Shown here: positions 21,301-64,000 of the stretch, in pieces
Layout: each line of letters begins with the position of its first letter
Numbering within the stretch: the first letter of the stretch is position 1
DNA from: Auanema rhodensis
Lineage: Eukaryota; Animalia; Nematoda
NCBI GenBank assembly: GCA_964057225.1
Contig: OZ059900.1
Coordinates: 14,384,001 to 14,448,000 of the forward strand
Length of the DNA stretch: 64,000 nucleotides
Direction of reading: 5' to 3'
Translations under genes and position numbers: made by a program
The notes under the pieces: model-generated
Told to the model about the DNA's origin: nothing
What the model saw: the letters and a program-made list of their open reading frames with translations, nothing else
The model's database searches: none

Positions 21301-21420
21301 CTTCAATTAGCTCTTTGAGTAAAATAGGCCATAAATCAAGATATCTTAGAGACAGTGTTTCATTTTTCTACTTTAATTCAAACTCACACTCTCAATGAAA
21401 GTTTCTAAGTGCAAATTCAA

Positions 21421-21492
21421 TCCTCGGTAGTATAGTGGTGAGTATCCGCGTCTGTCACATGCGAGACCCGGGTTCAATTCCCGGCCGGGGAG
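21421..21492 (+). tRNA. tRNA-Asp(GTC), representative of six plus-strand copies in the inverted block
   Basis: The same 72-nt sequence reads directly on the + strand, followed by aatgtttttg. Confidence 0.97.
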
Positions 21493-22995
21493 AATGTTTT
21501 TGTTCTGATTCATCGTTATTGAATCTTATGATATTTTTGTTTCTTTCCAAAAGTCGGATAAAAAAGATAATTATTAGAAAAAAGGTTGTTTTAAACTTTC
21601 TGTTTTTTCAAAAGTGATTTGAGCTTGTGTTTTTTTTCTAAATTGTTAAACATTTCCATTTAATTTAAATGTTCTATCTCAATTACGATGAAAAAAATTG
21701 AAACGTCAGCGTTAATCAATTGTTCATTGTAACACCAAACTTCAATTAGCTCTTTGAGTAAAGTAGGCCATAAATCAAGATATGTTAGAGACAGTGTTTC
21801 ATTTTTCTACTTTAATTCAAACTCACACTCTTAATGAAAGTTTTTAAGTGCAAATTCAATCCTCGGTAGTATAGTCGTGAGTATCCGCGTCTGTCACATG
21901 CGAGACCCGGGTTCAATTCCCGGCCGGGGAGAATGTTTTTGTTCTGATTCATCGTTATTGAATGTTATGCTATTTTTGTTTTTTTCCAAAAGTCGGATAA
22001 AAAAGATAATTATGAGAAAAAAGGTTGTTTTAAACTTTCTGTTTTTTCAAAAGTGATTTGAGCTTGTGTTTTTTTTCTAAATTGTTAAACATTTCCATTT
22101 AATTTAAATGTTCTATCTCAATTACGATGAAAAAAATTGAAACGTCAGCGTTAATCAATTGTTCATTCTAACACCAAACTTCAATTAGCTCTTTGAGTAA
22201 AATAGGCCATAAATCAAGATATCTTAGAGACAGTGTTTCATTTTTCTACTTTAATTCAAACTCACACTCTCAATGAAAGTTTCTAAGTGCAAATTCAATC
22301 CTCGGTAGTATAGTGGTGAGTATCCGCGTCTGTCACATGCGAGACCCGGGTTCAATTCCCGGCCGGGGAGAATGTTTTTGTTCTGATTCATCGTTATTGA
22401 ATCTTATGATATTTTTGTTTCTTTCCAAAAGTCGGATAAAAAAGATAATTATTAGAAAAAAGGTTGTTTTAAACTTTCTGTTTTTTCAAAAGTGATTTGA
22501 GCTTGTGTTTTTTTTCTAAATTGTTAAACATTTCCATTTAATTTAAATGTTCTATCTCAATTACGATGAAAAAAATTGAAACGTCAGCGTTAATCAATTG
22601 TTCATTGTAACACCAAACTTCAATTAGCTCTTTGAGTAAAGTAGGCCATAAATCAAGATATGTTAGAGACAGTGTTTCATTTTTCTACTTTAATTCAAAC
22701 TCACACTCTTAATGAAAGTTTTTAAGTGCAAATTCAATCCTCGGTAGTATAGTCGTGAGTATCCGCGTCTGTCACATGCGAGACCCGGGTTCAATTCCCG
22801 GCCGGGGAGAATGTTTTTGTTCTGATTCATCGTTATTGAATGTTATGCTATTTTTGTTTTTTTCCAAAAGTCGGATAAAAAAGATAATTATGAGAAAAAA
22901 GGTTGTTTTAAACTTTCTGTTTTTTCAAAAGTGATTTGAGCTTGTGTTTTTTTCCTAAATTGTTAAACATTTCCATTTAATTTAAATGTTCTATC

Positions 22996-24057
22996 TCAAT
23001 TACGATGAAAAAAATTGAAATTTCGTTTTCTAGTGTCCATTAAACTGAATTCATAAATTCGTGAAGAGAGATGTTGATAAATGTCATCCATTGATTGATC
23101 TAGAGGATCTGGTTGACGATATAGTTCACTCATTATATAATGAGGAAATTTTTCAGCGCAAATAGTAAAGAAAAATGCAGGACAAATATGACTTCCAGCG
23201 GCTGTAATTTGACGATCATAGCTTTGGATCAAATCAAATAATTGCTTACAGCTTTTTGCATCAGAAGCAGGAGATAAATTTTTCATTTTCCTCAATAATT
23301 GAAGTTTATCTGTAGCATATCTCATATATGCATCTTCAAGTGCTTTTCTCAGTAAGAGATAGTTGTTTTCATTAGGTTCAATACCCCTTATAACGACCAA
23401 AGCTTTATCGGATAAGCCTTCGAGTAAAATGTTCACTTTATCAAGTATGGAATATTGTGAATTTTGATGTATCATGTTATTAAATCTTGACCAATACAGT
23501 TTGAAATTTTCGGGTGTACCATCGAAAGTCGGTATTTGTGTTACCGGACGTTGAATGTGATTGCTTGTTTGTAACAATTGTAATAAATTTGAATAAATTT
23601 GTGTTGTTTCGGAACCAGTGCTTTCGATTACTTTTTCTTTCTTTTTCTCGGGAAGTAGTGATTCCACGAATGCAATTGCTGTTTTAATATGACTGATACG
23701 GTCAAGGAGTAATAATCTTTGTTCGTCAGCTATATTGTAAGCTTGACGATTGTTTGGATTTTCTTCAAGTTCTTCGTATAATGCTTTCATTTCGTTTCGA
23801 AGTTCCTTATCAGAATCTTTGAAAACGGTTTGGTATTTTTCTATGTTTCTGTTCACTGTGTCGAGAGCAGTAGAGAGCTCGTTCAATACCAATTCATGAT
23901 TGCGTAAAGTTGATTGCAGTAAAATAATTCTATCGTATGTTATTTCTGAATCAGATACCCCGGCGGGTTCGTTGTCGAGAAGATTTGCGTAACGTTTGAG
24001 CAAAACGGATAAGAAGTCGTATGAACGACGAATGTCGCCAACAAATGAGGAGGCCAT
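22996..24057 (-). pseudogene. gag: Truncated BEL gag (first ~346 aa) running into array DNA
   Basis: Identical to the N-terminus of ORF 30538-33651 up to MDTRKRN, followed by 7 array-derived codons. Confidence 0.92.
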
Positions 24058-24412
24058 TTCTAACGCTGTGTGAGGCGTAATAGGTAAGCTTCTATAGCTG
24101 ATAATGATGAATAAAATTCAGAAAATGAGAGAGAACAAGAAATGAAAGTTGTACAAAGTACAACAAATGAGTATGAGATATACGACTTGTCGTATCTTGG
24201 AGCGTTATTATGCTCCGAAATTATATCGATTACTGCAGGCAAATTCACGCCTGAGCTGATGGACTTAAGAGTCGCCACCAAATTAAATGATAAAGTACCT
24301 GTTGAAGCAGTGACCTGAGTCGTGATGGTCGATGCACCAATGTCGCTTAGGCGAAGGTATTCGGTTGTCGGTTTTCCGAAAAAATAATGAAAAATAATCG
24401 CTAACCGCGACA
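23019..24412 (-). mobile_element. Truncated inverted duplicate of the 5' end of the BEL/Pao insertion (short LTR, PBS, gag N-terminus)
   Basis: Reverse complement of 30183-31576. The flank 24413-24969 matches 30182-29626, including diagnostic unit variants, so this is a copy of the same insertion and not a new one. Confidence 0.95.
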
Positions 24413-24969
24413 TTTCATTTTTCTACTATATTTCAAACTCACACTCTTAATGAAAGTTTCTAAGTGCAAATTCAATCCTCGGTAGTATAGTCGTGAGTAT
24501 CCGCGTCTGTCACATGCGAGACCCGGGTTCAATTCCCGGCCGGGGAGAATGTTTTTGTTCTGATTCATCGTTATTGAATGTTATGCTATTTTTGTTTTTT
24601 TCCAAAAGTCGGATAAAAAAGATAATTATTAGAAAAAAGGTTGTTTTAAACTTTCTGTTTTTTCAAAAGTGATTTGAGCTTGTGTTTTTTTTCTAAATTG
24701 TTAAACATTTCCATTTAATTTAAATGTTCTATCTCAATTACGATGAAAAAAAACGGAACGTCAGCGTTAATCAATTGTTCATTTTAACACCAAACTTCAA
24801 TTAGCTCTTTGAGTAAAGTAGGCCATAAATCAATATATGTTAGAGTCAGTGTTTCATTTTTCTACTATATTTCAAACTCACACTCTTAATGAAAGTTTCT
24901 AAGTGCAAATTCAATCCTCGGTAGTATAGTGGTGAGTATCCGCGTCTGTCACATGCGAGACCCGGGTTC

Positions 24970-27900
24970 GAACAATTGATTAACGCTGACGTTCCATTTT
25001 TTTGCATCGTTATTGAGATAGAACATTTAAATTAAATAGAAATGTTTAAAAATTTAGAAAAAAACACAAGCTCAAATCACTTTTGAAAAAACAGAAAGTT
25101 TAAAACAACCTTTTTTCTAATAATTATCTTTTTTATCCGACTTTTGGAAAGAAACAAAAATAGCATAACATTCAATAACGATGAATCAGAACAAAAACAT
25201 TCTCCCCGGCCGGAAATTGAACCCGGGTCTCGCATGTGACAGACGCGGATACTCACCACTATACTACCGAGGATTGAATTTGCACTTAGAAACTTTCATT
25301 GAGAGTGTGAGTTTGAATTAAAGTAGAAAAATGAAACACTGTCTCTAAGATATCTTGATTTATGGCCTATTTTACTCAAAGAGCTAATTGAAGTTTGGTG
25401 TTAGAATGAACAATTGATTAACGCTGACGTTTCAATTTTTTTCATCGTAATTGAGATAGAACATTTAAATTAAATGGAAATGTTTAACAATTTAGGAAAA
25501 AAACACAAGCTCAAATCACTTTTGAAAAAACAGAAAGTTTAAAACAACCTTTTTTCTCATAATTATCTTTTTTATCCGACTTTTGGAAAAAAACAAAAAT
25601 AGCATAACATTCAATAACGATGAATCAGAACAAAAACATTCTCCCCGGCCGGGAATTGAACCCGGGTCTCGCATGTGACAGACGCGGATACTCACGACTA
25701 TACTACCGAGGATTGAATTTGCACTTAAAAACTTTCATTAAGAGTGTGAGTTTGAATTAAAGTAGAAAAATGAAACACTGTCTCTAACATATCTTGATTT
25801 ATGGCCTACTTTACTCAAAGAGCTAATTGAAGTTTGGTGTTACAATGAACAATTGATTAACGCTGACGTTTCAATTTTTTTCATCGTAATTGAGATAGAA
25901 CATTTAAATTAAATGGAAATGTTTAACAATTTAGAAAAAAAACACAAGCTCAAATCACTTTTGAAAAAACAGAAAGTTTAAAACAACCTTTTTTCTAATA
26001 ATTATCTTTTTTATCCGACTTTTGGAAAGAAACAAAAATATCATAAGTTTCAATAACGATGAATCAGAACAAAAACATTCTCCCCGGCCGGGAATTGAAC
26101 CCGGGTCTCGCATGTGACAGACGCGGATACTCACCACTATACTACCGAGGATTGAATTTGCACTTAGAAACTTTCATTGAGAGTGTGAGTTTGAATTAAA
26201 GTAGAAAAATGAAACACTGTCTCTAAGATATCTTGATTTATGGCCTATTTTACTCAAAGAGCTAATTGAAGTTTGGTGTTAGAATGAACAATTGATTAAC
26301 GCTGACGTTTCAATTTTTTTCATCGTAATTGAGATAGAACATTTAAATTAAATGGAAATGTTTAACAATTTAGAAAAAAAACACAAGCTCAAATCACTTT
26401 TGAAAAAACAGAAAGTTTAAAACAACCTTTTTTCTCATAATTATCTTTTTTATCCGACTTTTGGAAAAAAACAAAAATAGCATAACATTCAATAACGATG
26501 AATCAGAACAAAAACATTCTCCCCGGCCGGGAATTGAACCCGGGTCTCGCATGTGACAGACGCGGATACTCACGACTATACTACCGAGGATTGAATTTGC
26601 ACTTAAAAACTTTCCCCGGGTCTCGCATGTGACAGACGCGGATACTCACCACTATACTACCGAGGATTGAATTTGCACTTAGAAACTTTCATTGAGAGTG
26701 TGAGTTTGAATTAAAGTAGAAAAATGAAACACTGTCTCTAAGATATCTTGATTTATGGCCTATTTTACTCAAAGAGCTAATTGAAGTTTGGTGTTAGAAT
26801 GAACAATTGATTAACGCTGACGTTTCAATTTTTTTCATCGTAATTGAGATAGAACATTTAAATTAAATGGAAATGTTTAACAATTTAGAAAAAAAACACA
26901 AGCTCAAATCACTTTTGAAAAAACAGAAAGTTTAAAACAACCTTTTTTCTAATAATTATCTTTTTTCAAAAACATTCTCCCCGGCCGGGAATTGAACCCG
27001 GGTCTCGCATGTGACAGACGCGGATACTCACCACTATACTACCGAGGATTGAATTTGCACTTAGAAACTTTCATTAAGAGTGTGAGTTTGAATTATAGTA
27101 GAAAAATGAAACACTGTCTCTAACATATCTTGATTTATGGCCTACTTTACTCAAAGAGCTGATTGAAGTTTGGTGTTAAAATGAACAATTGATTAAAGCT
27201 GACGTTCCGTTTTTTTTCATCGTAATTGAGATAGAACATTTAAATTAAATAGAAATGTTTAAAAATTTAGAAAAAAACACAAGCTCAAATCACTTTTGAA
27301 AAAACAGAAAGTTTAAAACAACCTTTTTTCTAATAATTATCTTTTTTATCCGACTTTTGGAAAGAAACAAAAATAGCATAACATTCAATAACGATGAATC
27401 AGAACAAAAACATTCTCCCCGGCCGGAAATTGAACCCGGGTCTCGCATGTGACAGACGCGGATACTCACCACTATACTACCGAGGATTGAATTTGCACTT
27501 AGAAACTTTCATTGAGAGTGTGAGTTTGAATTAAAGTAGAAAAATGAAACACTGTCTCTAAGATATCTTGATTTATGGCCTATTTTACTCAAAGAGCTAA
27601 TTGAAGTTTGGTGTTAGAATGAACAATTGATTAACGCTGACGTTTCAATTTTTTTCATCGTAATTGAGATAGAACATTTAAATTAAATGGAAATGTTTAA
27701 CAATTTAGGAAAAAAACACAAGCTCAAATCACTTTTGAAAAAACAGAAAGTTTAAAACAACCTTTTTTCTCATAATTATCTTTTTTATCCGACTTTTGGA
27801 AAAAAACAAAAATAGCATAACATTCAATAACGATGAATCAGAACAAAAACATTCTCCCCGGCCGGGAATTGAACCCGGGTCTCGCATGTGACAGACGCGG

Positions 27901-30182
27901 ATACTCACGACTATACTACCGAGGATTGAATTTGCACTTAAAAACTTTCATTAAGAGTGTGAGTTTGAATTAAAGTAGAAAAATGAAACACTGTCTCTAA
28001 CATATCTTGATTTATGGCCTACTTTACTCAAAGAGCTAATTGAAGTTTGGTGTTACAATGAACAATTGATTAACGCTGACGTTTCAATTTTTTTCATCGT
28101 AATTGAGATAGAACATTTAAATTAAATGGAAATGTTTAACAATTTAGAAAAAAAACACAAGCTCAAATCACTTTTGAAAAAACAGAAAGTTTAAAACAAC
28201 CTTTTTTCTAATAATTATCTTTTTTATCCGACTTTTGGAAAGAAACAAAAATATCATAAGATTCAATAACGATGAATCAGAACAAAAACATTCTCCCCGG
28301 CCGGGAATTGAACCCGGGTCTCGCATGTGACAGACGCGGATACTCACCACTATACTACCGAGGATTGAATTTGCACTTAGAAACTTTCATTGAGAGTGTG
28401 AGTTTGAATTAAAGTAGAAAAATGAAACACTGTCTCTAAGATATCTTGATTTATGGCCTATTTTACTCAAAGAGCTAATTGAAGTTTGGTGTTAGAATGA
28501 GCAATTGATTAACGCTGACGTTTCAATTTTTTTCATCGTAATTGAGATAGAACATTTAAATTAAATGGAAATGTTTAACAATTTAGAAAAAAAACACAAG
28601 CTCAAATCACTTTTGAAAAAACAGAAAGTTTAAAACAACCTTTTTTCTCATAATTATCTTTTTTATCCGACTTTTGGAAAAAAACAAAAATAGCATAACA
28701 TTCAATAACGATGAATCAGAACAAAAACATTCTCCCCGGCCGGGAATTGAACCCGGGTCTCGCATGTGACAGACGCGGATACTCACGACTATACTACCGA
28801 GGATTGAATTTGCACTTAAAAACTTTCATTAAGAATGTGAGTTTGAATTAAAGTAGAAAAATGAAACACTGTCTCTAACATATCTTGATTTATGGCCTAC
28901 TTTACTCAAAGAGCTAATTGAAGTTTGGTGTTAGAATGAACAATTGATTAACGCTGACGTTTCAATTTTTTTCATCGTAGTTGAGATAGAACATTTAAAT
29001 TAAATGGAAATGTTTAACAATTTAGAAAAAAACACAAGCTCAAATCACTTTTGAAAAAGCAGAAAGTTTAAAATAACCTTTTTTCTAATAATTATCTTTT
29101 TAATTCGACTTTTGGAAGAAAACAAAAATAGCATAACATTCAATAACGATGAATCAGAACAAAAACATTCTCCCCGGCCGGGAATTGAACCCGGGTCTCG
29201 CATGTGACAGACGCGGATACTCACCACTATACTACCGAGGATTGAATTTGCACTTAGAAACTTTCATTAAGAGTGTGAGTTTGAATTAAAGTAGAAAAAT
29301 GAAACACTGTCTCTAACATATCTTGATTCATGGCCTACTTTACTCAAAGAGCTAATTGAAGTTTGGTGTTAAAATGAACAATTGATTAACGCTGACGTTC
29401 CGTTTTTTTTCATCGTAATTGATATAGAACATTTAAATTAAATGGAAATGTTTAACAATTTAGAAAAAAAACACAAGCTCAAATCACTTTTGAAAAAACA
29501 GAAAGTTTAAAACAACCTTTTTTCTAATAATTATCTTTTTTATCCGACTTTTGGAAAAAAACAAAAATAGCATAACATTCAATAACGATGAATCAGAACA
29601 AAAACATTCTCCCCGGCCGGGAATTGAACCCGGGTCTCGCATGTGACAGACGCGGATACTCACCACTATACTACCGAGGATTGAATTTGCACTTAGAAAC
29701 TTTCATTAAGAGTGTGAGTTTGAAATATAGTAGAAAAATGAAACACTGACTCTAACATATATTGATTTATGGCCTACTTTACTCAAAGAGCTAATTGAAG
29801 TTTGGTGTTAAAATGAACAATTGATTAACGCTGACGTTCCGTTTTTTTTCATCGTAATTGAGATAGAACATTTAAATTAAATGGAAATGTTTAACAATTT
29901 AGAAAAAAAACACAAGCTCAAATCACTTTTGAAAAAAAAGAAAGTTTAAAACAACCTTTTTTCTAATAATTATCTTTTTTATCCGACTTTTGGAAAAAAA
30001 CAAAAATAGCATAACATTCAATAACGATGAATCAGAACAAAAACATTCTCCCCGGCCGGGAATTGAACCCGGGTCTCGCATGTGACAGACGCGGATACTC
30101 ACGACTATACTACCGAGGATTGAATTTGCACTTAGAAACTTTCATTAAGAGTGTGAGTTTGAAATATAGTAGAAAAATGAAA
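24970..30182 (-). repeat. Tandem tRNA-Asp array, segment 2 (about 12 full tRNA copies, one partial copy, two internal deletion junctions)
   Basis: The unit resumes in the original orientation, with junctions at 26614/26615 and 26966/26967. Confidence 0.95.
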
Positions 30183-30254
30183 TGTCGCGGTTAGCGATTA
30201 TTTTTCATTATTTTTTCGGAAAACCGACAACCGAATACCTTCGCCTAAGCGACA
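30183..30254 (+). repeat. 5' LTR, only 72 bp
   Basis: Starts TGTCGC, ends GCGACA, is followed by the PBS, and aligns to the two ends of the 305-bp 3' LTR. Confidence 0.9.
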
Positions 30255-30255
30255 T

Positions 30256-30268
30256 TGGTGCATCGACC
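30256..30268 (+). promoter_or_regulatory. Primer binding site, tRNA-Gly(GCC)
   Basis: TGGTGCATCGACC lies 1 nt after the LTR and is complementary to ...GGUCGAUGCACCA, the 3' end of nematode tRNA-Gly(GCC) as recalled. Confidence 0.88.
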
Positions 30269-30537
30269 ATCACGACTCAGGTCACTGCTTCAACAGGTAC
30301 TTTATCATTTAATTTGGTGGCGACTCTTAAGTCCATCAGCTCAGGCGTGAATTTGCCTGCAGTAATCGATATAATTTCGGAGCATAATAACGCTCCAAGA
30401 TACGACAAGTCGTATATCTCATACTCATTTGTTGTACTTTGTACAACTTTCATTTCTTGTTCTCTCTCATTTTCTGAATTTTATTCATCATTATCAGCTA
30501 TAGAAGCTTACCTATTACGCCTCACACAGCGTTAGAA

Positions 30538-33500
30538 ATGGCCTCCTCATTTGTTGGCGACATTCGTCGTTCATACGACTTCTTATCCGTTTTGCTCAAA
30601 CGTTACGCAAATCTTCTCGACAACGAACCCGCCGGGGTATCTGATTCAGAAATAACATACGATAGAATTATTTTACTGCAATCAACTTTACGCAATCATG
30701 AATTGGTATTGAACGAGCTCTCTACTGCTCTCGACACAGTGAACAGAAACATAGAAAAATACCAAACCGTTTTCAAAGATTCTGATAAGGAACTTCGAAA
30801 CGAAATGAAAGCATTATACGAAGAACTTGAAGAAAATCCAAACAATCGTCAAGCTTACAATATAGCTGACGAACAAAGATTATTACTCCTTGACCGTATC
30901 AGTCATATTAAAACAGCAATTGCATTCGTGGAATCACTACTTCCCGAGAAAAAGAAAGAAAAAGTAATCGAAAGCACTGGTTCCGAAACAACACAAATTT
31001 ATTCAAATTTATTACAATTGTTACAAACAAGCAATCACATTCAACGTCCGGTAACACAAATACCGACTTTCGATGGTACACCCGAAAATTTCAAACTGTA
31101 TTGGTCAAGATTTAATAACATGATACATCAAAATTCACAATATTCCATACTTGATAAAGTGAACATTTTACTCGAAGGCTTATCCGATAAAGCTTTGGTC
31201 GTTATAAGGGGTATTGAACCTAATGAAAACAACTATCTCTTACTGAGAAAAGCACTTGAAGATGCATATATGAGATATGCTACAGATAAACTTCAATTAT
31301 TGAGGAAAATGAAAAATTTATCTCCTGCTTCTGATGCAAAAAGCTGTAAGCAATTATTTGATTTGATCCAAAGCTATGATCGTCAAATTACAGCCGCTGG
31401 AAGTCATATTTGTCCTGCATTTTTCTTTACTATTTGCGCTGAAAAATTTCCTCATTATATAATGAGTGAACTATATCGTCAACCAGATCCTCTAGATCAA
31501 TCAATGGATGACATTTATCAACATCTCTCTTCACGAATTTATGAATTCAGTTTAATGGACACTAGAAAACGAAATTCAGAACATGACTCACATAATTCAC
31601 CAAATCGTGGAAAACATGTTGATAAAACTTTCGACAAATCCACTAAAAAGATTTGGACTTGTGTTTTTTGTGGTAAAGAAGGACATCCATCTTATTATTG
31701 CCGTACTTATGACACACCACAGAAAAAACGTGAAATCTTAAAGAACAAAGAAGTATGCTGGCTTTGTTTCTCTACTTCACATCGCAGTCGTGATTGTTCT
31801 CGACCGAAATGCCCGAAATGCAAAAATGAGCACAACAGTTGCTTATGTCTAAATTTAGATCGTGAAACAAAGAGTCCTGTAAAACCTATATCGTCCACAA
31901 GCATGATTATAACAGAAAGTGCAGGACAACAAACTCCAGACCTTACAGTCTCACAAAATAAAAATGACATCATTTCTACACCAACTGTATCACAAACAGT
32001 ACCTACAGTACAACCAGCATTTTTCAATCATCTACCAGTAACATTAATAGTTACTGAACCTAAGAATACACAATTACAATTGCTCACACATACCGAGGAT
32101 ACCCATGATATCGAGATGAGTCAAATTGTATTGAAAACAGCTATGACACATATATTCAGTTACACACAAAATAAATATATCACAGTAAAGGTAGTGATTG
32201 ACAGTGGCTCTATGCGGTCTTTCATACGTAGTGATATAGCTAAGGATCTTCAATTGCCTATTAACAAAGTTCAACATCGCACATTCTTTGGAATAGGTGG
32301 CCTCAGCGAAACACATGAATGTAAAGAAGTGAAAACTATTTTTTATACTTCTAATGGCAGTATCATCATAACCAACATGCTTACGAAACCATTCATAGCT
32401 ACATCATTAAGAGCTCCACTTTTAGACAATAATGATCGTTCATTCATTAAAAGAAACAATATAACTTTAGCTAATCCAATGATTGATGGTCAGGCATTTG
32501 AACCAGATATTCTAATTGGATTAGATCGCTATAAGTTATTCGTTCATATGAATTCTGAACTTGAGTTACCCTCTACATTAAGAATGCAGAATACCAGTTT
32601 CGGTTATACCTTGTATGGGGAAATACCATATCAAAATCATTCTGTTACGTTAATAACAATTAATGATAAACCATTACAACATAATGATATGCTTCGATAC
32701 ATATTTGAAATTGATAGCTTAGGAATTAATACTTCTGAAGCTGGAATTGACACAACTATTGATTATTACGAAGATTATTCAAAACAGTTGACACTAACCA
32801 ATCATCGTATTGAAGCTCCTTTACCTTTGAAATCAAATTATCATCAATTACCAGATAATAAAGGTTTAGCCTTTTATCGATTTTTGGCATTGTTCAAAAC
32901 TTTACAAGCAAATCCTTCGAAATTGGAAATGTACAGGAAAATTATTGATGATTATATCGATAACGGTATCATTGAAGAAGTTCCTTTTGAAACTTCCAAC
33001 AATAATCATAATTCTGATATTATATGTCATTATATTCCACATCATGGGGTATGGAATACAAACAAGCCGAATAAACCTTTACGAGTTGTTTTCGATGCTT
33101 CAGCTAAAACTAAGGGTAAATTATCCCTTAACGACATACTATATACTGGAAAAAGTTTTGTGAACAATATTTTCAACATTCTCATTGCTTCAAGAATAAA
33201 ACCAATCATTATTACTTGTGATATTCAATCAGCCTTTTTACAAGTAGGCTTACAGAAGCAACATCGGGATCTTTGCCGTTTCTTTTGGGTAAAGGATCCT
33301 CAAGGAAGTTGTAACTCAAGTTATACTAAAGTTTTTCGATTCAAACGCATACCATTTGGATTGACTGCCTCACCTAGCATTCTAAACATGAGTGTAAATT
33401 GGTATTTATGCTCTTTGAATACTGACTTATCAGATGAAATATTAAATATATTATATGTAGATAATATTCTATTATTTGCTGATAGTATAGATGAAGCTCA

Positions 33501-33651
33501 ACAGAAATGTTCACTTACACAACAATTATTTCAAAATATTTCGATGCATGTTTGTGAATTCGCATCCAATAAGTCAGAAGCTCTTCAGCACCTTCATAAA
33601 GATGATATTCTCTCTGATTGTCCACTAAAAAATTCTTGGAGTACCTTATAA
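30538..33651 (+). CDS. gag-pol: BEL/Pao polyprotein part 1: Gag, three zinc knuckles, aspartic protease, reverse transcriptase
   Basis: IPTFDG..F..YW..F (DUF1759-type Gag); CVFCGKEGHPSYYC, CWLCFSTSHRSRDC and CPKCKNEHNSCLC; protease IDSGS; RT motifs RVVFDAS, DIQSAFLQV, PFGLTASP and YVDN. The frame is broken by an extra A at 33627-33632. Confidence 0.96.
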   Translation: MASSFVGDIRRSYDFLSVLLKRYANLLDNEPAGVSDSEITYDRIILLQSTLRNHELVLNELSTALDTVNRNIEKYQTVFKDSDKELRNEMKALYEELEENPNNRQAYNIADEQRLLLLDRISHIKTAIAFVESLLPEKKKEKVIESTGSETTQIYSNLLQLLQTSNHIQRPVTQIPTFDGTPENFKLYWSRFNNMIHQNSQYSILDKVNILLEGLSDKALVVIRGIEPNENNYLLLRKALEDAYMRYATDKLQLLRKMKNLSPASDAKSCKQLFDLIQSYDRQITAAGSHICPAFFFTICAEKFPHYIMSELYRQPDPLDQSMDDIYQHLSSRIYEFSLMDTRKRNSEHDSHNSPNRGKHVDKTFDKSTKKIWTCVFCGKEGHPSYYCRTYDTPQKKREILKNKEVCWLCFSTSHRSRDCSRPKCPKCKNEHNSCLCLNLDRETKSPVKPISSTSMIITESAGQQTPDLTVSQNKNDIISTPTVSQTVPTVQPAFFNHLPVTLIVTEPKNTQLQLLTHTEDTHDIEMSQIVLKTAMTHIFSYTQNKYITVKVVIDSGSMRSFIRSDIAKDLQLPINKVQHRTFFGIGGLSETHECKEVKTIFYTSNGSIIITNMLTKPFIATSLRAPLLDNNDRSFIKRNNITLANPMIDGQAFEPDILIGLDRYKLFVHMNSELELPSTLRMQNTSFGYTLYGEIPYQNHSVTLITINDKPLQHNDMLRYIFEIDSLGINTSEAGIDTTIDYYEDYSKQLTLTNHRIEAPLPLKSNYHQLPDNKGLAFYRFLALFKTLQANPSKLEMYRKIIDDYIDNGIIEEVPFETSNNNHNSDIICHYIPHHGVWNTNKPNKPLRVVFDASAKTKGKLSLNDILYTGKSFVNNIFNILIASRIKPIIITCDIQSAFLQVGLQKQHRDLCRFFWVKDPQGSCNSSYTKVFRFKRIPFGLTASPSILNMSVNWYLCSLNTDLSDEILNILYVDNILLFADSIDEAQQKCSLTQQLFQNISMHVCEFASNKSEALQHLHKDDILSDCPLKNSWSTL

Positions 33652-36600
33652 TGCTCTAAGTGATTCCCTTTCAATTCGATTCAATATACTGGAACTCTCA
33701 ACAGTAACCAAACGAAACGCATTACAACAATTACATTCAGTTTATGATCCTTTGGGTATAACAAATCCATTAATTTTACCCTTGAAGGTTATTCTTAGAG
33801 ATATTTTTGCACTTAAAACAGAATGGGATGATACTATACCTTCTGAATTATCAGCCTCTTGGACATCAATAATTAACGAAATTAATTATGCTAAGGTTAC
33901 TGTACCTCGTGTACTATCACCATCTATTGAAGAAGGTACATTATGGATCTTTGCTGACGCTAGTTCAACAGCGTTAGCTGTGTGTGCTTACATACAGACA
34001 AACAACAAAATGAGTTCTATTCTAGCAGGTGAAAGCCGCTTATCTCCTAAAACACCAATTACAATTCCACGTATGGAACTCTTAGCTATTCGATTAGCTA
34101 TGAGACTTTCTCACACAATATTAATGGAATTACCATGTAAAAAACTAAATATTGTAAGTGATAGCAGCATTGCGTTATCATGGATTTTAACAAATAAGCA
34201 ATTACCTGACTTCATAGCAAAACAAGTTCAAAATGTACAACATATGACCCGTGTATTAGAAGAACATTCGATTAATGTTCAATTTTACCATGTTACTACG
34301 GATTATAATCCGGCTGACATTGGTTCACGAGGAGCCAATAAATATCAACTTCAGGAGTCTATGTGGCTTCTTGGACCACAGTGGATTCTTAACAGAACCG
34401 TTCAAGCTTTAACACCATATGGTTCCTTGCAAGTGATGCATGTTTCACCTGTATCATTACTTATAGCTCAAGCTATATCTGTACCCTTGGAACATAACCT
34501 AGCTTATCATAACGGTCATTTTGCAACTTTACGTTTGTTAGCCCGTTTGGCTAAAATTATAAAAATTTGGCATTTAAAAACATTTAAAAATCAAAATGGA
34601 CATAAATTACGAAATATTTCACAAATATCAACATCATATCCCGTTTTAACAACTGATTTGAAGATACTACGTACTATTTTAATTCGACAAGCTCAAGATC
34701 ATCTCATTATTGATGATTTACGACGACAATATCCTGGTTATCATTTCTATCTTGATGATAACGAGATAATTCGAGTAAGAAGCCGATTACAAAATTCTTT
34801 ACTATCCTATGATACAAAAAACCCAATTTATCTTCCTCGCAACTCATTATTCACTCAACACATAATTATGGACGCTCATCGCGCATCTTTTCATCAAGGA
34901 AAAGAATTTTTGATCACACATCTTCGTCAAACTTATTTTATTGCTCGCGCTGCAGCAATTATAAAACAAACTTTGAAGAAATGTCATTTATGCAATAAAT
35001 ATCAATCTTTACCATATGGCACTCCTGATATGCCTTCATTGCCTAAAGATAGAGTGATATTAACTAAACCATTTCTTAACACTGGGTGCGACTTATTTGG
35101 ACCTATTATGCTTAAAAGTGGACATAAGGTCTATGTTTGTCTTTTTACTTGCTTAACCATACGTGCCATTCATCTTGAAATGGTCTATGATCAAACAGCG
35201 ACTTCATTTATGAACGCTTTCACTCGTTTCATAGCCCGACGAGGTTTACCAACCACAATGCGAAGTGATTGTGGGGGTAATTTTATTCTCGGAGCTCAAT
35301 TAATTGAGACAATACAAAAATCAGCTGAATTTAATTTCACCCCAGCTGATATTGTAGTCCATCTAGCCAAAAATAACATAAATTGGCTCTTTAACACACC
35401 TAAGTCTCCATGGAAAGGAGGTTCTTGGGAAAGAATGGTGGGAATTACTAAAAATGCAATGAAAAAGGCAATACAAAGAAATAAATTAACATTTGATGAA
35501 TTATTAACTTTAATTGTCAAAATTGAAGCAGTCATTAACACAAGGCCTTTAACACATCCAGATCCAAATAATATAAATCACGTACCTATTCGTCCTGTCG
35601 ATTTCATTTCGCCTGGTCTTGTTCTTTCCCTACCGGATGATTGTGGTTTTCGAGTTTATAATAATTCCATTGATATTCCTGTAATACAAAACGTTGAACA
35701 AGCATTAGAAACTTTACAACTTACTTCTGATGCAGCTACGATGTTTTGGGATAAATTTCAAACAGAATATTTGATATATATTCGTGATATATACAAACAT
35801 TCCCGAAAACAACCTTCAGCAAATGCCAATAAACCTAATATTGGTGAAATTGTAGTTATACATAACGATAACTTACCTCGTGGTCAATGGAAACTTGGTC
35901 GAATCACAGAACTTATAAGTAGTTCTGATGGATTCATTCGTACAGCTAAAGTTCTCACTCCAGCTGGGAACATCATATCACGTTCCTTAAATCATCTATA
36001 TCCACTTGAATTACGAAGTGTTTTACCTGATATGACATCAATTCCTCGATCTACTCCTTCCGAAGACACTTCATTGTCTTTGAAGGTAGGATCTGCTTCG
36101 GATATGATGAACCTTGATGCTCAACCAATACAGGAATATATTATAAGATCAAACTCACCTGTACCTTCAATCCATGAAACGAACAATGTGGTTACATGTC
36201 CTGAACCAATAGATATTAATAATCCTCAAAAAATTTACATACCTACGTCCAAAATTTCTTCGATACATAATCCGATCCTTGAGGAAGAAGCTGAATTACA
36301 ATTATGGGGTCCAGGTCATACGCCTGACGATAATCGTAAAAAATTACAAAAGAAAAACACAAGTAAAGCAAAACAAACCATAATTTTGCCTACCATTGAC
36401 CAAAACGACGTAAAACCATCTACTGAAACAAACGAAAAACGTGTTCGCACCTTACCTTTACGGGATCACATCACATACGCTTCGCGAAAGAATTTCAAAT
36501 CAGCAATGACGTCTGCAATTTTAATTTTTACAATAATATCGATATTTTTACCCGTAGCATCTGCAAATTCTGTAGTATGTGATGAGGCAAAGTTTTTATC

Positions 36601-38452
36601 CATACATTTGCTTGGAAACCCACATTGTGCTCCTCATCTTGCCATGTGGTCATTGTTCTTACCACTTTGTTGTTTATTTGGCATCCTTTGTTGTTGTATA
36701 CGCATAGGATTCCATCAATATCGATATAATTCCTGGTCTAATACTATTCGTTACATATCTTCTTTTTTCACACTTAGACCTCATACTCCGGAACAGAATG
36801 ATATTGAATTAGGAGTTATTGAACCTCCTCCAACTTCATCTGAGAATATTCCACATATAGAACCTAAATTATATCCTCCATTTTGGAAAAGAGGTTCTCG
36901 ATTATCAATTATCAGTATACTAACGATATTTCTGATTAATAATGCTACTGCTTGTACCGATCATCACGTTATTCATTCGGTTTCTACACATTGTCTGAAT
37001 CGTACTCAATGTTATCACCAATATAGTGATCAAATAGTTTTTTCTCCTGGAGTTAAAGATTTATGCCTGGATATAAAATTTAAAAATCATTCTATTGGTT
37101 ATATTCAAATTCGAAAATTATATACAAGTTATGAATGTAAGAAAACCACAAAATTTTTTACAAAGGCTACTTTGCCTAAACTAACTGTTGATTTTCGATG
37201 TGCTCATATGGGATCTTGTGATCAAACTTGTGAAACTATGAATCATCGCTCTCGTATTTCTGAATTCGAACCATATAATTATCCAACACAATCCAAATGT
37301 GTCCGGTCTTTAGCACATATATGGCGTTGTTTGACATTTTGGGAAAACCCTTGTCTTTTCTACAAATTAGAACATGTACCTACTTCGGACGACATATTTG
37401 AAGTATTTAAATGTGAAGATTGGACAACATCTTCAACTTTTGAAATTACAACACATATTGTTAAAGATAAAAATATTTATAATATCACAATTCCACCATA
37501 TTTGAAGATGAATTACTCTTTTTTCAATATGACGATCAATACACAAGACAAACCTCCTACTCCACTTCATAATTATTATTTTGTTGCTTCAAACAATCAA
37601 ATCTTTGCTGTTGAACCACATTTTCCATTTATGGTACAATGTATTTCGAAGGCAGACACTTCCGACAATTTTTCAAGATGTACAACGGTTATCGATTGTA
37701 CTTGTAACAAAATCAATAATGATGTTGCTGGCTGTATATGTCCACAACATAATTTCACACATTTTTCTCATATTTTACCTCCGTATATGGCAAATACGGA
37801 AACAATCTATAAACCCGATACATCCTTAACTTTTCGAACTCAGTCTGATGAAACTACAGTTTCAATTGATTCTGAACTTTTATATGACAGTAATACATTT
37901 TCCTATGATATACCTTGTCGTCCCTTATTGATCAGTCTCTCCGGATGTTATTCCTGTGGGCAGGGTGCATCTGCATTGTTTTCTTGTATGTCATCTAAAG
38001 AAACATGGATACCGATCGAGTGTTCAAAAGATGTATTCATGATTAAATGTTCACCCTTCAATGAAATTACAAATATCAATATTAAAAGAGATAATTCAAT
38101 CATAAATGAAGTTTGTCATACTAAATGTAATCATGAAAAAATTGATATAATTGTAACGGGACAATTATATTTTAATTCATCTACTAATGAACCAAATGAA
38201 ATTCATTCAAATCAGAATTCAGTTATAATACCTGACATAATTCCTTTTTTGAAACTTTTTAAAGAACACTGGATGATGTTTTCAATCTGCGTTGTTTTTC
38301 TGATCATCATATGTTTTTTGGGATACCTAGGTTGTACTCCAGCCATTTATTTTTTCTTGATCACAGCTTTCCGTACTATTAAAATCATAATAGATACAAC
38401 AACCAAGTTTTTCTATATTCTTAGAAATCTTTGTTTTGATAGAAGATTTTAA
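33630..38452 (+). CDS. pol-env: BEL/Pao polyprotein part 2: RT C-terminus, RNase H, integrase, envelope. Continues part 1 across a +1 frameshift (the ORF track starts it at 33752).
   Basis: The frame opens with KILGVPYN...TKR...YDPLG. RNase H: FADAS, RMEL, SDS, NPADIGSRG. Integrase: HHCC, GCDLFGP, RSDCG, WERMV, plus a DUF5641-type PRGQWKLGRI. The C-terminus is a Cys-rich glycoprotein with a TM segment. Confidence 0.95.
36953..38452 (+). other. env: Phlebovirus Gc/G2-like class II fusion glycoprotein domain (about 499 aa)
   Basis: Follows the signal-like LSIISILTIFLINNATA. Contains RCAHMGSC, PCLFY, EVFKCEDW and LSGCYSCGQGA, many N-x-S/T sequons, and a C-terminal TM. Nematode BEL elements are known to carry this family. 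Confidence 0.88.
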
Positions 38453-38560
38453 CATTGAACTAATTCCGTACTATCCTTAAAAATCTTACTATATAAGCAT
38501 CATGGGTCATTATGCGACGGACAACGTCGCAAAAGGCCAATGGCTTAGCTGCGGCGGCAC

Positions 38561-38865
38561 TGTCGCGTCGCGGTTAGCGATTATTTTTTATTCTTTTTTC
38601 TATGTTTTGTTCCATTTCAGTTTTGTTTTTATCGTTTTCCTTTACTTTGTCTATTTCAGATTGTACTTTTCGGCCCGCCTTCCCATATCTTCATCTTTGG
38701 GATCGGAAAATACGATATACCTCAACTTACTTCAACGGAGTATAGACGATCTATATTTTGTTGATATTGTTAACTTTCTCTTTAATAAAGCATTCTACCA
38801 CTGACTATCTGTTCTATTAATTCTCAGCGGAATACCGACAACCGAATACCTTCGCCTAAGCGACA
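38561..38865 (+). repeat. 3' LTR, 305 bp
   Basis: TGTCGC...GCGACA, AATAAA at 38784-38789, followed by the TSD. A near-identical LTR is at 63031-63337. Confidence 0.93.
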
Positions 38866-41800
38866 TGAAACACTGTCTCTAACATATCTTGATTCATGGC
38901 CTACTTTACTCAAAGAGCTAATTGAAGTTTGGTGTTAAAATGAACAATTGATTAACGCTGACGTTCCGTTTTTTTTCATCGTAATTGAGATAGAACATTT
39001 AAATTAAATAGAAATGTTTAAAAATTTAGAAAAAAAACACAAGCTCAAATCACTTTTGAAAAAACAGAAAGTTTAAAACAACCTTTTTTCTCATAATTAT
39101 CTTTTTTATCCGACTTTTGGAAAAAAACAAAAATAGCATAACATTCAATAACGATGAATCAGAACAAAAACATTCTCCCCGGCCGGGAATTGAACCCGGG
39201 TCTCGCATGTGACAGACGCGGATACTCACCACTATACTACCGAGGATTGAATTTGCACTTAGAAACTTTCATTAAGAGTGTGAGTTTGAATTATAGTAGA
39301 AAAATGAAACACTGTCTCTAACATATCTTGATTCATGGCCTACTTTACTCAAAGAGCTAATTGAAGTTTGGTGTTAGAATGAACAATTGATTAACGCTGA
39401 CGTTTCAATTTTTTTCATCGTAATTGAGATAGAACATTTAAATTAAATGGAAATGTTTAACAATTTAGAAAAAAAACACAAGCACAAATCACTTTTGAAA
39501 AAACAGAAAGTTTAAAACAACCTTTTTTCTAATAATTATCTTTTTTATCCGACTTTTGGAAAAAAACAAAAATAGCATAACATTCAATAACGATGAATCA
39601 GAACAAAAACATTCTCCCCGGCCGGGAATTGAACCCGGGTCTCGCATGTGACAGACGCGGATACTCACCACTATACTACCGAGGATTGAATTTGCACTTA
39701 GAAACTTTCATTAAGAGTGTGAGTTTGAAATATAGTAGAAAAATGAAACACTGACTCTAACATATATTGATTTATGGCCTACTTTACTCAAAGAGCTAAT
39801 TGAAGTTTGGTGTTAAAATGAACAATTGATTAAAGCTGACGTTCCGTTTTTTTCCATCGTAATTGAGATAGAACATTTAAATTAAATAGAAATGTTTAAA
39901 AATTTAGAAAAAAACACAAGCTCAAATCACTTTTGAAAAAACAGAAAGTTTAAAACAACCTTTTTTCTAATAATTATCGTTTTTATCCGACTTTTTGAAG
40001 AAAACAAAAATAGCATAACATTCAATAACGATGAATCAGAACAAAAACATTCTCCCCGGCCGGAAATTGAACCCGGGTCTCGCTTGTGACAGACGCGGAT
40101 ACTCACCACTATACTACCGAGGATTGAATTTGCACTTAGAAACTTTCATTAAGAGTGTGAGTTTGAATTAAAGTAGAAAAATGAAACACTGTCTCTAACA
40201 TATCTTGATTTATGGCCTACTTTACTCAAAGAGCTAATTGAAGTTTGGTGTTACAATGAACAATTGATTAACGCTGACGTTCCATTTTTTTTCATCGTAA
40301 TTGAGATAGAATACTTAAATTGAATGGTAATGTTTAAAAATTTAGAAAATATCACAAGCTCAAATCACTTTTGAAAAAACAGAAAGTTTAAAATAACCTT
40401 TTTTCTAATAATTATCTTTTTAATTCGACTTTTGGAAGAAAACAAAAATAGCATAACATTCAATAACGATGAATCAGAACAAAAACATTCTCTCCGGCCG
40501 GGAATTGAACCCGGGTCTCGCATGTGACAGACGCGGATACTCACCACTATACTACCGAGGATTGAATTTGCACTTAGAAACTTTCATTGAGAGTGTGAGT
40601 TTGAATTAAAGTAGAAAAATGAAACACTGTCTCTAAGATATCTTGATTTATGGCCTACTTTACTCGAAGAGCTAATTGAAGTTTGGTGTTAGAATGAACA
40701 AATGATTAACGCTGACGTTCCGTTTTTTTTCATCGTAATTGAGATAGAACATTTAAATTAAATGGAAATGTTTAACAATTTAGAAAAAAAACACAAGCTC
40801 AAATCACTTTTGAAAAAACAGAAAGTTTAAAACAACCTTTTTTCTAATAATTATCTTTTTTATCCGACTTTTGGAAAAAAACAAAAATAGCATAACATTC
40901 AATAACGATGAATCAGAACAAAAACATTCTCCCCGGCCGGGAATTGAACCCGGGTCTCGCATGTGACAGACGCGGATACTCACCACTATACTACCGAGGA
41001 TTGAATTTGCACTTAGAAACTTTCATTAAGAGTGTGAGTTTGAAATATAGTAGAAAAATGAAACACTGTCTCTAACATATATTGATTTATGGCCTACTTT
41101 ACTCAAAGAGCTAATTGAAGTTTGGTGTTAAAATGAACAATTGATTAACGCTGACGTTCCGTTTTTTTTCATCGTAATTGAGATAGAACATTTAAATTAA
41201 ATAGAAATGTTTAAAAATTTAGAAAAAAAACACAAGCTCAAATCACTTTTGAAAAAACAGAAAGTTTAAAACAACCTTTTTTCTCATAATTATCTTTTTT
41301 ATCCGACTTTTGGAAAAAAACAAAAATAGCATAACATTCAATAACGATGAATCAGAACAAAAACATTCTCCCCGGCCGGGAATTGAACCCGGGTCTCGCA
41401 TGTGACAGACGCGGATACTCACCACTATACTACCGAGGATTGAATTTGCACTTAGAAACTTTCATTAAGAGTGTGAGTTTGAATTAAAGTAGAAAAATGA
41501 AACACTGTCTCTAAGATATCTTGATTTATGGCCTACTTTACTCAAAGAGCTAATTGAAGTTTGGTGTTAGAATGAACAAATGATTAACGCTGACGTTCCG
41601 TTTTTTTTCATCGTAATTGAGATAGAACATTTAAATTAAATGGAAATGTTTAACAATTTAGAAAAAAAACACAAGCTCAAATCACTTTTGAAAAAACAGA
41701 AAGTTTAAAACAACCTTTTTTCTCATAATTATCTTTTTTATCCGACTTTTGGAAAAAAACAAAAATAGCATAACATTCAATAACGATGAATCAGAACAAA

Positions 41801-55318: not shown

Positions 55319-55339
55319 TGGAGGTTCCACCGAGATTCG
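55319..55339 (+). promoter_or_regulatory. Primer binding site, tRNA-Gln
   Basis: TGGAGGTTCCACCGAGAT(TCG) is complementary to ...AUCUCGGUGGAACCUCCA, the 3' 18 nt of animal tRNA-Gln including CCA. Confidence 0.9.
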
Positions 55340-62255: not shown

Positions 62256-63030
62256 AATTGAGATAGAATATTAAAATTAAATAGAAATGTTTAAAAATTT
62301 AGAAAAAAAACACAAGCTCAAATCACTTTTGAAAAAACAGAAAGTTTAAAACAACCTTTTTTCTAAAAATTATCTTTTTTATCCGACTTTTTGAAAAAAA
62401 CAAAAATAGCATAACATTCAATAACGATGAATCAGAACAAAAACATTCTCCCCGGCCGGGAATTGAACCCGGGTCTCGCATGTGACAGACGCGGATACTC
62501 ACCACTATACTACCGAGGATTGAATTTGCACTTAGAAACTTTCATTAAGAGTGTGAGTTTGAATTATAGTAGAAGAATGAAACACTGTCTCTAACATATC
62601 TTGATTCATGGCCTACTTTACTCAAAGAGCTAATTGAAGTTTGGTGTTAAAATGAACAATTGATTAAAGCTGACGTTCCGTTTTTTTTCATCGTAATTGA
62701 GATAGAATATTTAAATTAAATAGAAATGTTTAAAAATTTAGAAAAAAAACACAAGCTCAAATCACTTTTGAAAAAACAGAAAGTTTAAAACAACCTTTTT
62801 TCTAAAAATTATCTTTTTTATCCGACTTTTTGAAAAAAACAAAAATAGCATAACATTCAATAACGATGAATCAGAACAAAAACATTCTCCCCGGCCGGGA
62901 ATTGAACCCGGGTCTCGCATGTGACAGACGCGGATACTCACCACTATACTACCGAGGATTGAATTTGCACTTAGAAACTTTCATTAAGAGTGTGAGTTTG
63001 AATTATAGTAGAAGAATGAAACACTGTCTC
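62256..63030 (-). repeat. Tandem tRNA-Asp array, segment 4 (tRNAs at 62448-62519 and 62887-62958)
   Basis: About 1.8 units with private variants (agaagaatga, gaatatt). Confidence 0.95.
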
Positions 63031-63337
63031 TGTCGCTTCGGCGAAGGTATTCGGTTGTCGGTATTCCGCTGAGAATTAATAGAACGGATAGTCAGTGGTA
63101 GAATGCTTTATTAAAGAGAAAGTTAACAATATCAACAAAATATAGATCGTCTATACTCCGTTGAAGTAAGTTGAGGTATGTCTTGTATTTTCCGATCCCA
63201 AAGATGAAGATATGGGAAGGCGGGCCGAAAAGTACAATCTGAAATAGACAAAGTAAAGGAAAACGATAAAAACAAAACTGAAATGGAACAAAACATAGAA
63301 AAAAGAATAAAAAATAATCGCTAACCGCGACGCGACA
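63031..63337 (-). repeat. 3' LTR, 307 bp
   Basis: Matches 38561-38865 apart from a few substitutions and a 2-nt length difference near 63180. Confidence 0.93.
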
Positions 63338-63445
63338 GTGCCGCCGCAGCTAAGCCATTGGCCTTTTGCGACGTTGTCCGTCGCATAATGACCCATGATG
63401 CTTATATAGTAAGATTTTTAAGGATAGTACGGAATTAGTTCAATG

Positions 63446-64000
63446 TTAAAATCTTCTATCAAAACAAAGATTTCTAAGAATATAGAAAAACTTGGTTGTT
63501 GTATCTATTATGATTTTAATAGTACGGAAAGCTGTGATCAAGAAAAAATAAATGGCTGGAGTACAACCTAGGTATCCCAAAAAACATATGATGATCAGAA
63601 AAACAACGCAGATTGAAAACATCATCCAGTGTTCTTTAAAAAGTTTCAAAAAAGGAATTATGTCAGGTATTATAACTGAATTCTGATTTGAATGAATTTC
63701 ATTTGGTTCATTAGTAGATGAATTAAAATATAATTGTCCCGTTACAATTATATCAATTTTTTCATGATTACATTTAGTATGACAAACTTCATTTATAATT
63801 GAATTATCTCTTTTAATATTGATATTTGTAATTTCATTGAAGGGTGAACATTTAATCATGAATACATCTTTTGAACACTCGATCGGTATCCATGTTTCTT
63901 TAGATGACATACAAGAAAACAATGCAGATGCACCCTGCCCACAGGAATAACATCCGGAGAGACTGATCAATAAGGGACGACAAGGTATATCATAGGAAAA
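63446..64000 (-). CDS. env: C-terminal part of the Gc-like envelope (partial, open at the window edge)
   Basis: The translation is identical to the C-terminus of ORF 33752-38452. Confidence 0.93.
   Translation of the reverse strand, partial: FSYDIPCRPLLISLSGCYSCGQGASALFSCMSSKETWIPIECSKDVFMIKCSPFNEITNINIKRDNSIINEVCHTKCNHEKIDIIVTGQLYFNSSTNEPNEIHSNQNSVIIPDIIPFLKLFKEHWMMFSICVVFLIIICFLGYLGCTPAIYFFLITAFRTIKIIIDTTTKFFYILRNLCFDRRF

What the first reader, a model, noticed from the sequence alone, without database searches (positions are those of the whole stretch)
30120..30182. Two independent BEL insertions land 63 and 72 bp upstream of a tRNA gene: possible Pol III-guided targeting
Seen: insertion 1 begins 63 bp beyond the tRNA 5' end (30119 to 30183). 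Insertion 2 begins 72 bp beyond it (62958 to 63031) in the opposite orientation. They are 9 bp apart in a 439-bp unit (aaatgaaa|cactgtctc|), and both leave the tRNA intact. Established: yeast Ty1 and Ty3 and Dictyostelium elements target tRNA-upstream windows through Pol III factors. Inference: the sites lie just outside the expected TFIIIB footprint, about one helical turn apart, suggesting a tRNA-targeting enveloped BEL element. With n=2, chance proximity is about 4%, so this is suggestive only.
Basis: partly seen in the sequence, partly recalled or inferred. Interest (0 to 1): 0.75.

Follow-up and report, generated by a model that had tools for sequence, protein, structure and literature searches.

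The report
Retrotransposon twice inside a tRNA array
Two sister copies of an envelope-bearing retrotransposon, likely from a nematode, sit 63 and 72 bases upstream of tRNA genes in a tandem tRNA array; this likely reflects a loose preference for open DNA there, while true tRNA-guided aiming, which we did not find reported for an animal LTR element, remains possible but unproven.

Summary
The coordinates are right. A BEL/Pao (belpaovirus) element with a phlebovirus-like envelope lies at 30183-38865 with a 5-bp TGAAA duplication 59-63 bp upstream of a tRNA-Asp gene. A sister copy's exact LTR end lies 72 bp upstream of another, in opposite orientation and a different unit haplotype. A third piece (23019-24412) only duplicates insertion 1.

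The window is 71% tRNA array, so nearness to a tRNA is automatic; the 9-bp spacing alone has P=4.3%. A stronger hint is that a low-copy family (roughly 3-5 copies, from contig depth) has two copies in one array, and one other run joins the element to the array.

Against strict targeting: the only outside flank visible (2 of 4 runs) is 1.5 kb of non-array DNA; the integrase tail is unconserved; the array also collects a gypsy fragment and clustered rearrangement breaks; insertion 2's duplication lies outside the window. No genome was held, so the genome-wide test was not run, and contigs hide most junctions.

Verdict: real insertions and a likely soft array or chromatin preference (0.5). Pol III-tethered targeting is about 0.3.

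The parts
30048..30119 (-). tRNA-Asp(GTC) gene next to insertion 1 (one of 102 in a 439-bp tandem array)
30120..30182 (.). 63 bp of tRNA-upstream spacer; left target-site duplication TGAAA at 30178-30182
30183..30254 (+). 5' LTR of copy 1, only 72 bp (keeps both TG...CA ends, lacks the middle)
30256..30268 (+). primer-binding site, complementary to the 3' end of tRNA-Gly(GCC) (one mismatch to the Drosophila gene printed in PMC6587125)
30478..33651 (+). gag (DUF1759, three CCHC knuckles), protease region and reverse transcriptase with YVDN; the frame is broken near 33629-33651
33629..38452 (+). Peptidase_A17 (Pao) domain, integrase (H2C2, DUF5641), unconserved linker 36014-36506, phlebovirus G2-like envelope
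38561..38865 (+). 3' LTR of copy 1 (305 bp); AATAAA at 38784, then a 15-nt complement of tRNA-Gly nt 12-26 at 38790-38804
38866..38870 (.). right target-site duplication TGAAA; the array resumes here
62887..62958 (-). tRNA-Asp(GTC) gene next to insertion 2
62959..63030 (.). 72 bp of tRNA-upstream spacer; predicted duplication GTCTC at 63026-63030 (other copy outside the window)
63031..64000 (-). copy 2: 3' LTR (63031-63337, 307 bp) and 3' end of env, running off the window
23019..24412 (-). copy 3: inverted duplicate of copy 1's first 1394 bp with the same flank; a rearrangement product, not an insertion

Best explanation
Two sister copies of a BEL/Pao element with a phlebovirus-like envelope sit 9 bp apart in unit coordinates within a tRNA-Asp array, likely as separate integrase-made insertions drawn there by a soft preference for accessible DNA rather than by a dedicated tether to Pol III machinery. 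Shown: exact TG...CA ends, a 5-bp duplication for copy 1, different unit haplotypes and opposite orientations. Inferred: every unit has the same sequence and probably the same chromatin layout, so any mild integrase bias (for example DNA at the edge of the Pol III-occupied zone) recurs at the same unit position. Also inferred: a 100-fold redundant array tolerates insertions, so they persist. The family also sits outside the array, so the preference would not be strict.
For: Precise ends and duplication; distinct flank haplotypes. Runs X1 and X6 each hold a contig with the LTR start beside non-array DNA (1507 nt in X1, about 620 nt in X6) at about a third to a fifth of the element's depth. The same flank letters appear in both runs and do not occur in the window. 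The array also holds a gypsy-like fragment with non-LTR ends and 10 independent non-integrase breakpoints; three of them fall within 4 bp (P=0.034), and 5 pairs among all 12 events, the BEL pair included, lie within 9 bp against 2.9 expected. The integrase tail is unconserved against 8 close relatives and has no BLASTP hit below E=0.64 among 120 homologues. The review's table of tRNA-adjacent retrotransposons lists only copia, gypsy and L1 elements of yeasts and dictyostelids.
Against: Uniform genome-wide chance is poor: a further copy in the array and within 9 bp has P of about 5e-5 to 5e-4 on rough copy-number and array-size figures, before allowing for the selection of this window. X10 has a 436-nt contig joining BEL position 33745 to array unit position 356 and no contig over the site-1 junction, which could be a further array insertion. 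The non-array flank shows one side only, so a tRNA could lie on the other side, and that copy may be older. No chromatin data were available, so the accessibility step is inference.
Confidence: 0.5

Rival explanations
1. Pol III-guided (Ty1-like) targeting: the integrase binds Pol III or TFIIIB/TFIIIC and integrates in either orientation just upstream of the transcription complex, about 60-70 bp before the mature tRNA, with some off-target insertions.
For: Two of few copies in one array, 9 bp apart and in opposite orientations. The X10 element-array join comes from a separate sample. The tRNA part of the unit is the most conserved (0.5% against 1.5-3% divergence), so the genes are probably in use. 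The assembly of run X1 is about 76 million letters, a compact genome of the kind in which such targeting evolves (abstract start of PMC6101501). Ty1 uses a window of about 1 kb and also inserts elsewhere.
Against: The one visible outside flank is a long unbroken non-array contig. No joint from an LTR end to the spacer (unit positions 1-367) was listed in 4 of 4 runs, although contigs overlapping by only 30 nt seem not to be laid, so this test is weak. No conserved integrase tail and no GP[FY] or Ty1-like motif (patterns recalled). No precedent for BEL/Pao in the searches made or the review table. The two copies are sisters in one strain, not separate lineages.
Confidence: 0.3
2. Pure coincidence: random insertions that were kept because the array is a neutral sink, with the 9-bp spacing picked out after the fact from a scan of very many windows.
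For: 4.3% for the spacing and 70% for sparing the tRNA. Unrelated foreign DNA (gypsy fragment) is also in the array.
Against: Low apparent copy number makes two array copies unlikely under a uniform model. The X10 join.
Confidence: 0.12
3. Insertion 2 is not a new integration but a template-switch or recombination junction that happens to end at the LTR terminus, like the other rearrangements in this unstable array.
For: Copy 3 shows that insertion 1 has already been copied by rearrangement. Only 1.8 units lie between the gypsy fragment and copy 2. The target reads TGTCTC beside the LTR's TGTCGC, a near repeat. Both copies share letters at 38415, 38560 and the LTR start that the main contigs of the four runs do not show.
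Against: The junction is exactly at the CA terminus with only 1 nt of overlap. Copy 2's LTR differs from copy 1's at 5 positions and its env end at 1, whereas the true duplicate (copy 3) is identical.
Confidence: 0.08

Closest known systems
Nematode belpaoviruses (BEL/Pao, Belpaoviridae, Semotivirus) with phlebovirus-like Env: Atlas virus of Ancylostoma ceylanicum, Cer13 of C. elegans
   Same: gag-PR-RT-RH-IN-env order, YVDN in reverse transcriptase, three CCHC knuckles, Phlebovirus_G2 envelope with best PDB hit 7a4a (Atlas GC, E=5e-19), LTR of about 300 bp; best integrase homologues (43-47%) come from Ancylostoma, Oesophagostomum, Haemonchus and Teladorsagia.
   Different: This copy has a frame break in reverse transcriptase and a 72-bp 5' LTR. 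The two Atlas papers have no occurrence of 'tRNA' in their main text, and PMC9094657 none of 'target site'.
Ty1 of Saccharomyces cerevisiae (copia; integrase binds Pol III subunits Rpc40/Rpc53/34/31)
   Same: Insertions upstream of tRNA genes, outside the TFIIIB zone; off-target sites exist.
   Different: Different superfamily; no Ty1-like motif found in the integrase tail (pattern recalled); only two sites known here; no binding evidence.
Ty3, Tj1, DGLT-A (gypsy; TFIIIB-directed for Ty3) and TRE5 / NLTR-B (L1) of dictyostelids
   Same: Position upstream of tRNA genes; DGLT-A also inserts in either orientation.
   Different: Their windows are 1-33 bp (LTR elements) or 39-64 bp (L1). The sites here, at 59-72 bp, lie outside the Ty3-type windows, and the element is not gypsy or L1.

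Membership tests
Belpaoviridae (BEL/Pao), nematode env-bearing type | gag-PR-RT-RH-IN(-env) order with Pao peptidase A17, DUF1759, DUF5641 | tested here: met
Belpaoviridae (BEL/Pao), nematode env-bearing type | YVDN in reverse transcriptase; three CCHC zinc knuckles in Gag | tested here: met
   features as stated in passages of PMC9094657 and 10.64898/2026.03.22.711591
Belpaoviridae (BEL/Pao), nematode env-bearing type | phlebovirus GN/GC-like envelope | tested here: met
   PF07245 E=5e-43; PDB 7a4a E=5e-19
Belpaoviridae (BEL/Pao), nematode env-bearing type | TG...CA LTRs, tRNA primer site, short target-site duplication | tested here: met
   (copy 1; the 5' LTR is shortened)
Atlas clade | >50% identity over >70% of the Atlas capsid core | not tested
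   No Atlas capsid sequence was fetched; the gag-RT frame found no capsid match in the PDB copy at E<=0.1
Pol III-gene-targeting retrotransposons (Ty1/Ty3/DGLT-A type) | most genomic copies lie in a defined window upstream of Pol III genes | tested here: inconclusive
   2 of 2 independent window insertions fit; the 1 visible outside flank (X1, X6) is non-array on the side seen; most flanks were invisible; no genome
Pol III-gene-targeting retrotransposons (Ty1/Ty3/DGLT-A type) | targets several tRNA types or 5S, not one repeat | not testable with these tools
   only tRNA-Asp genes in the window
Pol III-gene-targeting retrotransposons (Ty1/Ty3/DGLT-A type) | integrase C-terminal module that binds Pol III, TFIIIB or TFIIIC | tested here: inconclusive
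   tail unconserved, no recalled motif matched; binding itself could not be tested, as no host Pol III sequences were available
Ty3-type precise targeting | insertion within about 1-33 bp of the tRNA start | tested here: not met
   sites at 59-63 and 68-72 bp against Table 1 of PMC5911963

The most novel reading that the evidence does not exclude
This is a Pol III-guided belpaovirus: an enveloped BEL/Pao element of a compact-genome nematode whose integrase docks on the tRNA transcription machinery and inserts about 60-70 bp upstream in either orientation. It would be a first for the BEL/Pao superfamily and, as far as the searches made show, for animal LTR elements, and an independent origin of the Ty1-like safe-harbour strategy.
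Probability: 0.3. Interest if true: 0.8.

Novelty: new member of a known kind. Interest (0 to 1): 0.42.

Why it matters
In the review table read, tRNA-upstream targeting is listed only for yeast and social-amoeba elements of the copia, gypsy and L1 groups. A BEL/Pao case in an animal would extend this convergent safe-harbour strategy to a fourth superfamily and to an envelope-bearing element. The array, with over 100 near-identical targets, makes the idea easy to test by junction mapping. If there is no tether, the locus is an ordinary example of mobile DNA collecting in a redundant, unstable tRNA array.

Tried and rejected
No whole genome is held, so the genome-wide map could not be made. The LTR-end pattern found 0 matches in metagenome contigs. 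Integrase relatives: 80 loci kept of 158 confirmed in metagenomes (27-39% identity; mostly element interiors, several ending inside their LTRs); ARAGORN found one doubtful intron-split call in 80 loci, which says nothing for lack of flanks. None were confirmed in viral contigs. Contigs of 4 of 11 runs were laid twice. No contig covered the site-1 junction or spanned the middle of the short 5' LTR (depth 0 over 30165-30180 in 4 of 4). Rfam found no tRNA-like fold in the LTR (3 chance hits, E 2.7-6.9). The two target sites share no obvious motif (9/25 and 6/25 identical). Copy 3 was rejected as a third insertion. The gypsy fragment was rejected as an integration, since its ends are not LTR termini. 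A collapsed-assembly artefact is unlikely, because units form ordered haplotype blocks. A recalled BEL element said to target 5S genes was not borne out: the 'Beon' named in PMC10946416 is a plant chromovirus in 18S rDNA. No complex prediction was sent, since no host Pol III or TFIIIB sequences were available. Earlier scan findings gave nothing for this genome or sequence; one search listed fungal or unplaced cases only. Paper searches; none listed a tRNA-targeting BEL/Pao or animal LTR element (judged from titles and abstract starts; most subscription papers, including the original Cer element papers, are not in the library). No supplementary files were read.

Full report
Setting. The window is mostly a tandem array of a 439-bp unit, each with one tRNA-Asp(GTC) gene: 102 genes, period 438-439, 45.3 kb or 71% of the window. 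Units fall into ordered haplotype blocks, and the tRNA part is the least variable (0.5% against 1.5-3.2%), so the array looks real and probably in use. No genome is held. The best integrase homologues are from strongylid nematodes at 43-47% identity, so the host is likely a clade V nematode (inference).

The element. 30183-38865 (+) is a BEL/Pao retrotransposon: DUF1759 gag with three CCHC knuckles, reverse transcriptase with YVDN, Peptidase_A17, integrase and a Phlebovirus_G2 envelope. The best PDB hit is 7a4a, Atlas virus GC (identified from passages of PMC9094657). These are the hallmarks given for nematode belpaoviruses in passages of PMC9094657 and bioRxiv 10.64898/2026.03.22.711591. The copy is broken: the frame shifts within reverse transcriptase near 33629-33651, and the 5' LTR is 72 bp against 305 bp for the 3' LTR.

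Observation check. Copy 1 has TG...CA ends and a TGAAA duplication at unit positions 59-63 upstream of the tRNA. Copy 2 (63031-64000, minus strand) ends exactly in CA after unit position 72; its predicted duplication GTCTC cannot be confirmed inside the window. The copies differ at 6 positions in 970 bp, 5 of them in the LTR. They share letters at 38415, 38560 and the LTR start that the main contigs of four other runs do not show, so they are sisters from one recent lineage. Their flanking units are different haplotypes. The piece at 23019-24412 is an identical inverted duplicate of copy 1's 5' end with its flank, followed by units matching those left of copy 1: a template-switch product (mechanism inferred). 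So there are two events, not three.

Chance. Inside the array nearness to a tRNA is automatic (at most 183 bp). P(two sites within 9 bp) is 4.3%; P(both spare the tRNA) is 70%. The stronger argument is at genome level. Element depth is about 350 in X1 and 1550 in X6, while the unique-flank contigs have depth 104 and 291, suggesting about 3-5 copies; the tool warns that contig depth is no copy number, so this is rough. With the array at 0.06-0.3% of a genome of about 77 Mb (assumed from run size), a further copy in the array within 9 bp has uniform-model P of 5e-5 to 5e-4. That argues against pure uniform chance but does not separate tethering from a soft preference, and the window was picked from a very large scan.

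Other isolates. Eleven runs from three studies hold the element; four were laid, all as contigs. (a) X1 has a 1540-nt contig whose last 33 nt are the LTR start, preceded by 1507 nt that do not match the array spacer. X6 has a 667-nt contig with the same flank: the two runs give an identical merged loose-end consensus, which is the position-wise mix of the element's own pre-LTR letters and X1's flank letters. Those letters are not in the window. A multi-copy tRNA would normally break such a contig (inference), so this side has none within 1.5 kb; the other side was not seen, and the flank could also belong to a related element. (b) No joint from an LTR end to spacer positions 1-367 was listed in 4 of 4 runs, and none covered the site-1 junction. 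But no right-hand flank was laid at all and the shortest laid piece was 33 nt, so 30+30-nt junction contigs are probably invisible; this negative is weak. (c) X10 has a 436-nt contig, depth 7.5, joining element position 33745 to unit position 356 in copy 1's orientation: an array-resident, rearranged copy in another sample, whose insertion site is unknown. This counts for array association.

Controls within the array. A gypsy-like fragment (54557-62257) with non-LTR ends also sits in the array. Ten independent non-integrase breakpoints map to unit positions 24, 59, 135, 157, 176, about 304, about 358, 384, 386 and 388. I dropped 385 as the other side of the break at 384; the break at 59 may be tied to insertion 1. 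The tightest three span 4 bp (P=0.034), and 5 pairs among 12 events, the BEL pair included, lie within 9 bp against 2.9 expected. Tight clusters in unit coordinates therefore arise here without any integrase.

Integrase tail. The 164 residues at 36014-36506 are rich in S, P, I and T, align poorly with the matching linker of 8 close relatives, and give no BLASTP hit below E=0.64 among 120 homologues; recalled GP[FY] and Ty1-like patterns do not match. This neither shows nor excludes a short targeting motif.

Mechanism. Most likely (0.5): two integrase-made insertions during a recent burst, drawn by accessible or suitably bent DNA at a fixed place in every unit and tolerated because the array is redundant; the family also inserts elsewhere. 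Rival (0.3): Ty1-like tethering to the Pol III apparatus. Coincidence 0.12; insertion 2 as a rearrangement 0.08. These odds are my judgement, not computed results.

Comparison. Table 1 and passages of PMC5911963 list Ty1/2/4 (about 1 kb window), Ty3-type elements and DGLT-A (1-33 bp) and TRE5/NLTR-B (39-64 bp); the words 'Pao', 'nematode' and 'metazoa' do not occur in its main text. Passages of PMC8869645 cover sequence-specific non-LTR and DNA elements in tRNA genes, a different strategy. Ten searches (titles and abstract starts seen) listed no tRNA-targeting BEL/Pao; the library lacks most subscription papers, and no supplements were read. The element is a new member of the env-bearing nematode belpaoviruses. 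Membership among Pol III-targeting elements is inconclusive, and the Ty3-type window is not met.

Side result. The LTR carries, directly behind AATAAA (38784), an exact 15-nt complement (38790-38804) of tRNA-Gly(GCC) nt 12-26 as printed for Drosophila in passages of PMC9149858 and PMC6587125, and the primer site fits the same tRNA's 3' end. This would give a two-part primer pairing like that described for Ty1 and Ty3 in passages of PMC5371799; the pairing is predicted, and the host's own tRNA-Gly was not seen. It concerns priming, not targeting.

Verdict. The novel reading (first Pol III-guided belpaovirus) has probability about 0.3 and interest 0.8 if true.

Noticed in passing
window 38790-38804 (and 63092-63106; primer site 30256-30268): Exact 15-nt complement of the tRNA-Gly(GCC) D-arm region right behind the LTR's AATAAA, plus a tRNA-Gly-type primer site: likely a two-part primer pairing as in Ty1/Ty3. 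One search listed no BEL/Pao case.
   Followed up: partly
window 20925, 24969, 26615, 54556: Non-integrase breakpoints cluster at unit positions 384-388, tRNA nt 52-56 (GTTCA, B box / T arm): 3 of 10 independent breaks, P about 0.03. This fits tRNA genes acting as fork barriers (passages of PMC5368702).
   Followed up: partly
window 54557-62257: Gypsy-like fragment with the order gag, envelope (Monjiviricetes fusion / herpes gB-like), protease, start of RT; an envelope between gag and protease is unusual. It has a stop near 60010 and non-LTR ends joined to the array.
   Followed up: partly
window 30183-30254: Copy 1's 5' LTR is a 72-bp form that differs from its own 3' LTR at several letters and lacks the poly(A) signal and the tRNA-Gly box; no contig of 4 runs spans its middle, so copy 1 may be a recombinant or a strain-private deletion.
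   Followed up: partly
window 20923-24969 and 26539-27000: Complex inversion and templated duplication inside the array, carrying the 5' end of the element; also a 76-bp tandem duplication and a 57-bp deletion.
   Followed up: yes
window 1-63030: A pure tRNA-Asp(GTC) tandem array of at least 102 genes with higher-order repeats of 2-5 unit haplotypes; run X6 suggests it may be several hundred units (rough).
   Followed up: partly
Unexplained.
   Followed up: no
window 38460-38500 (runs X1, X6, X10): Loose ends between the env stop and the 3' LTR show that other copies carry different or extra sequence in this untranslated region.
   Followed up: no
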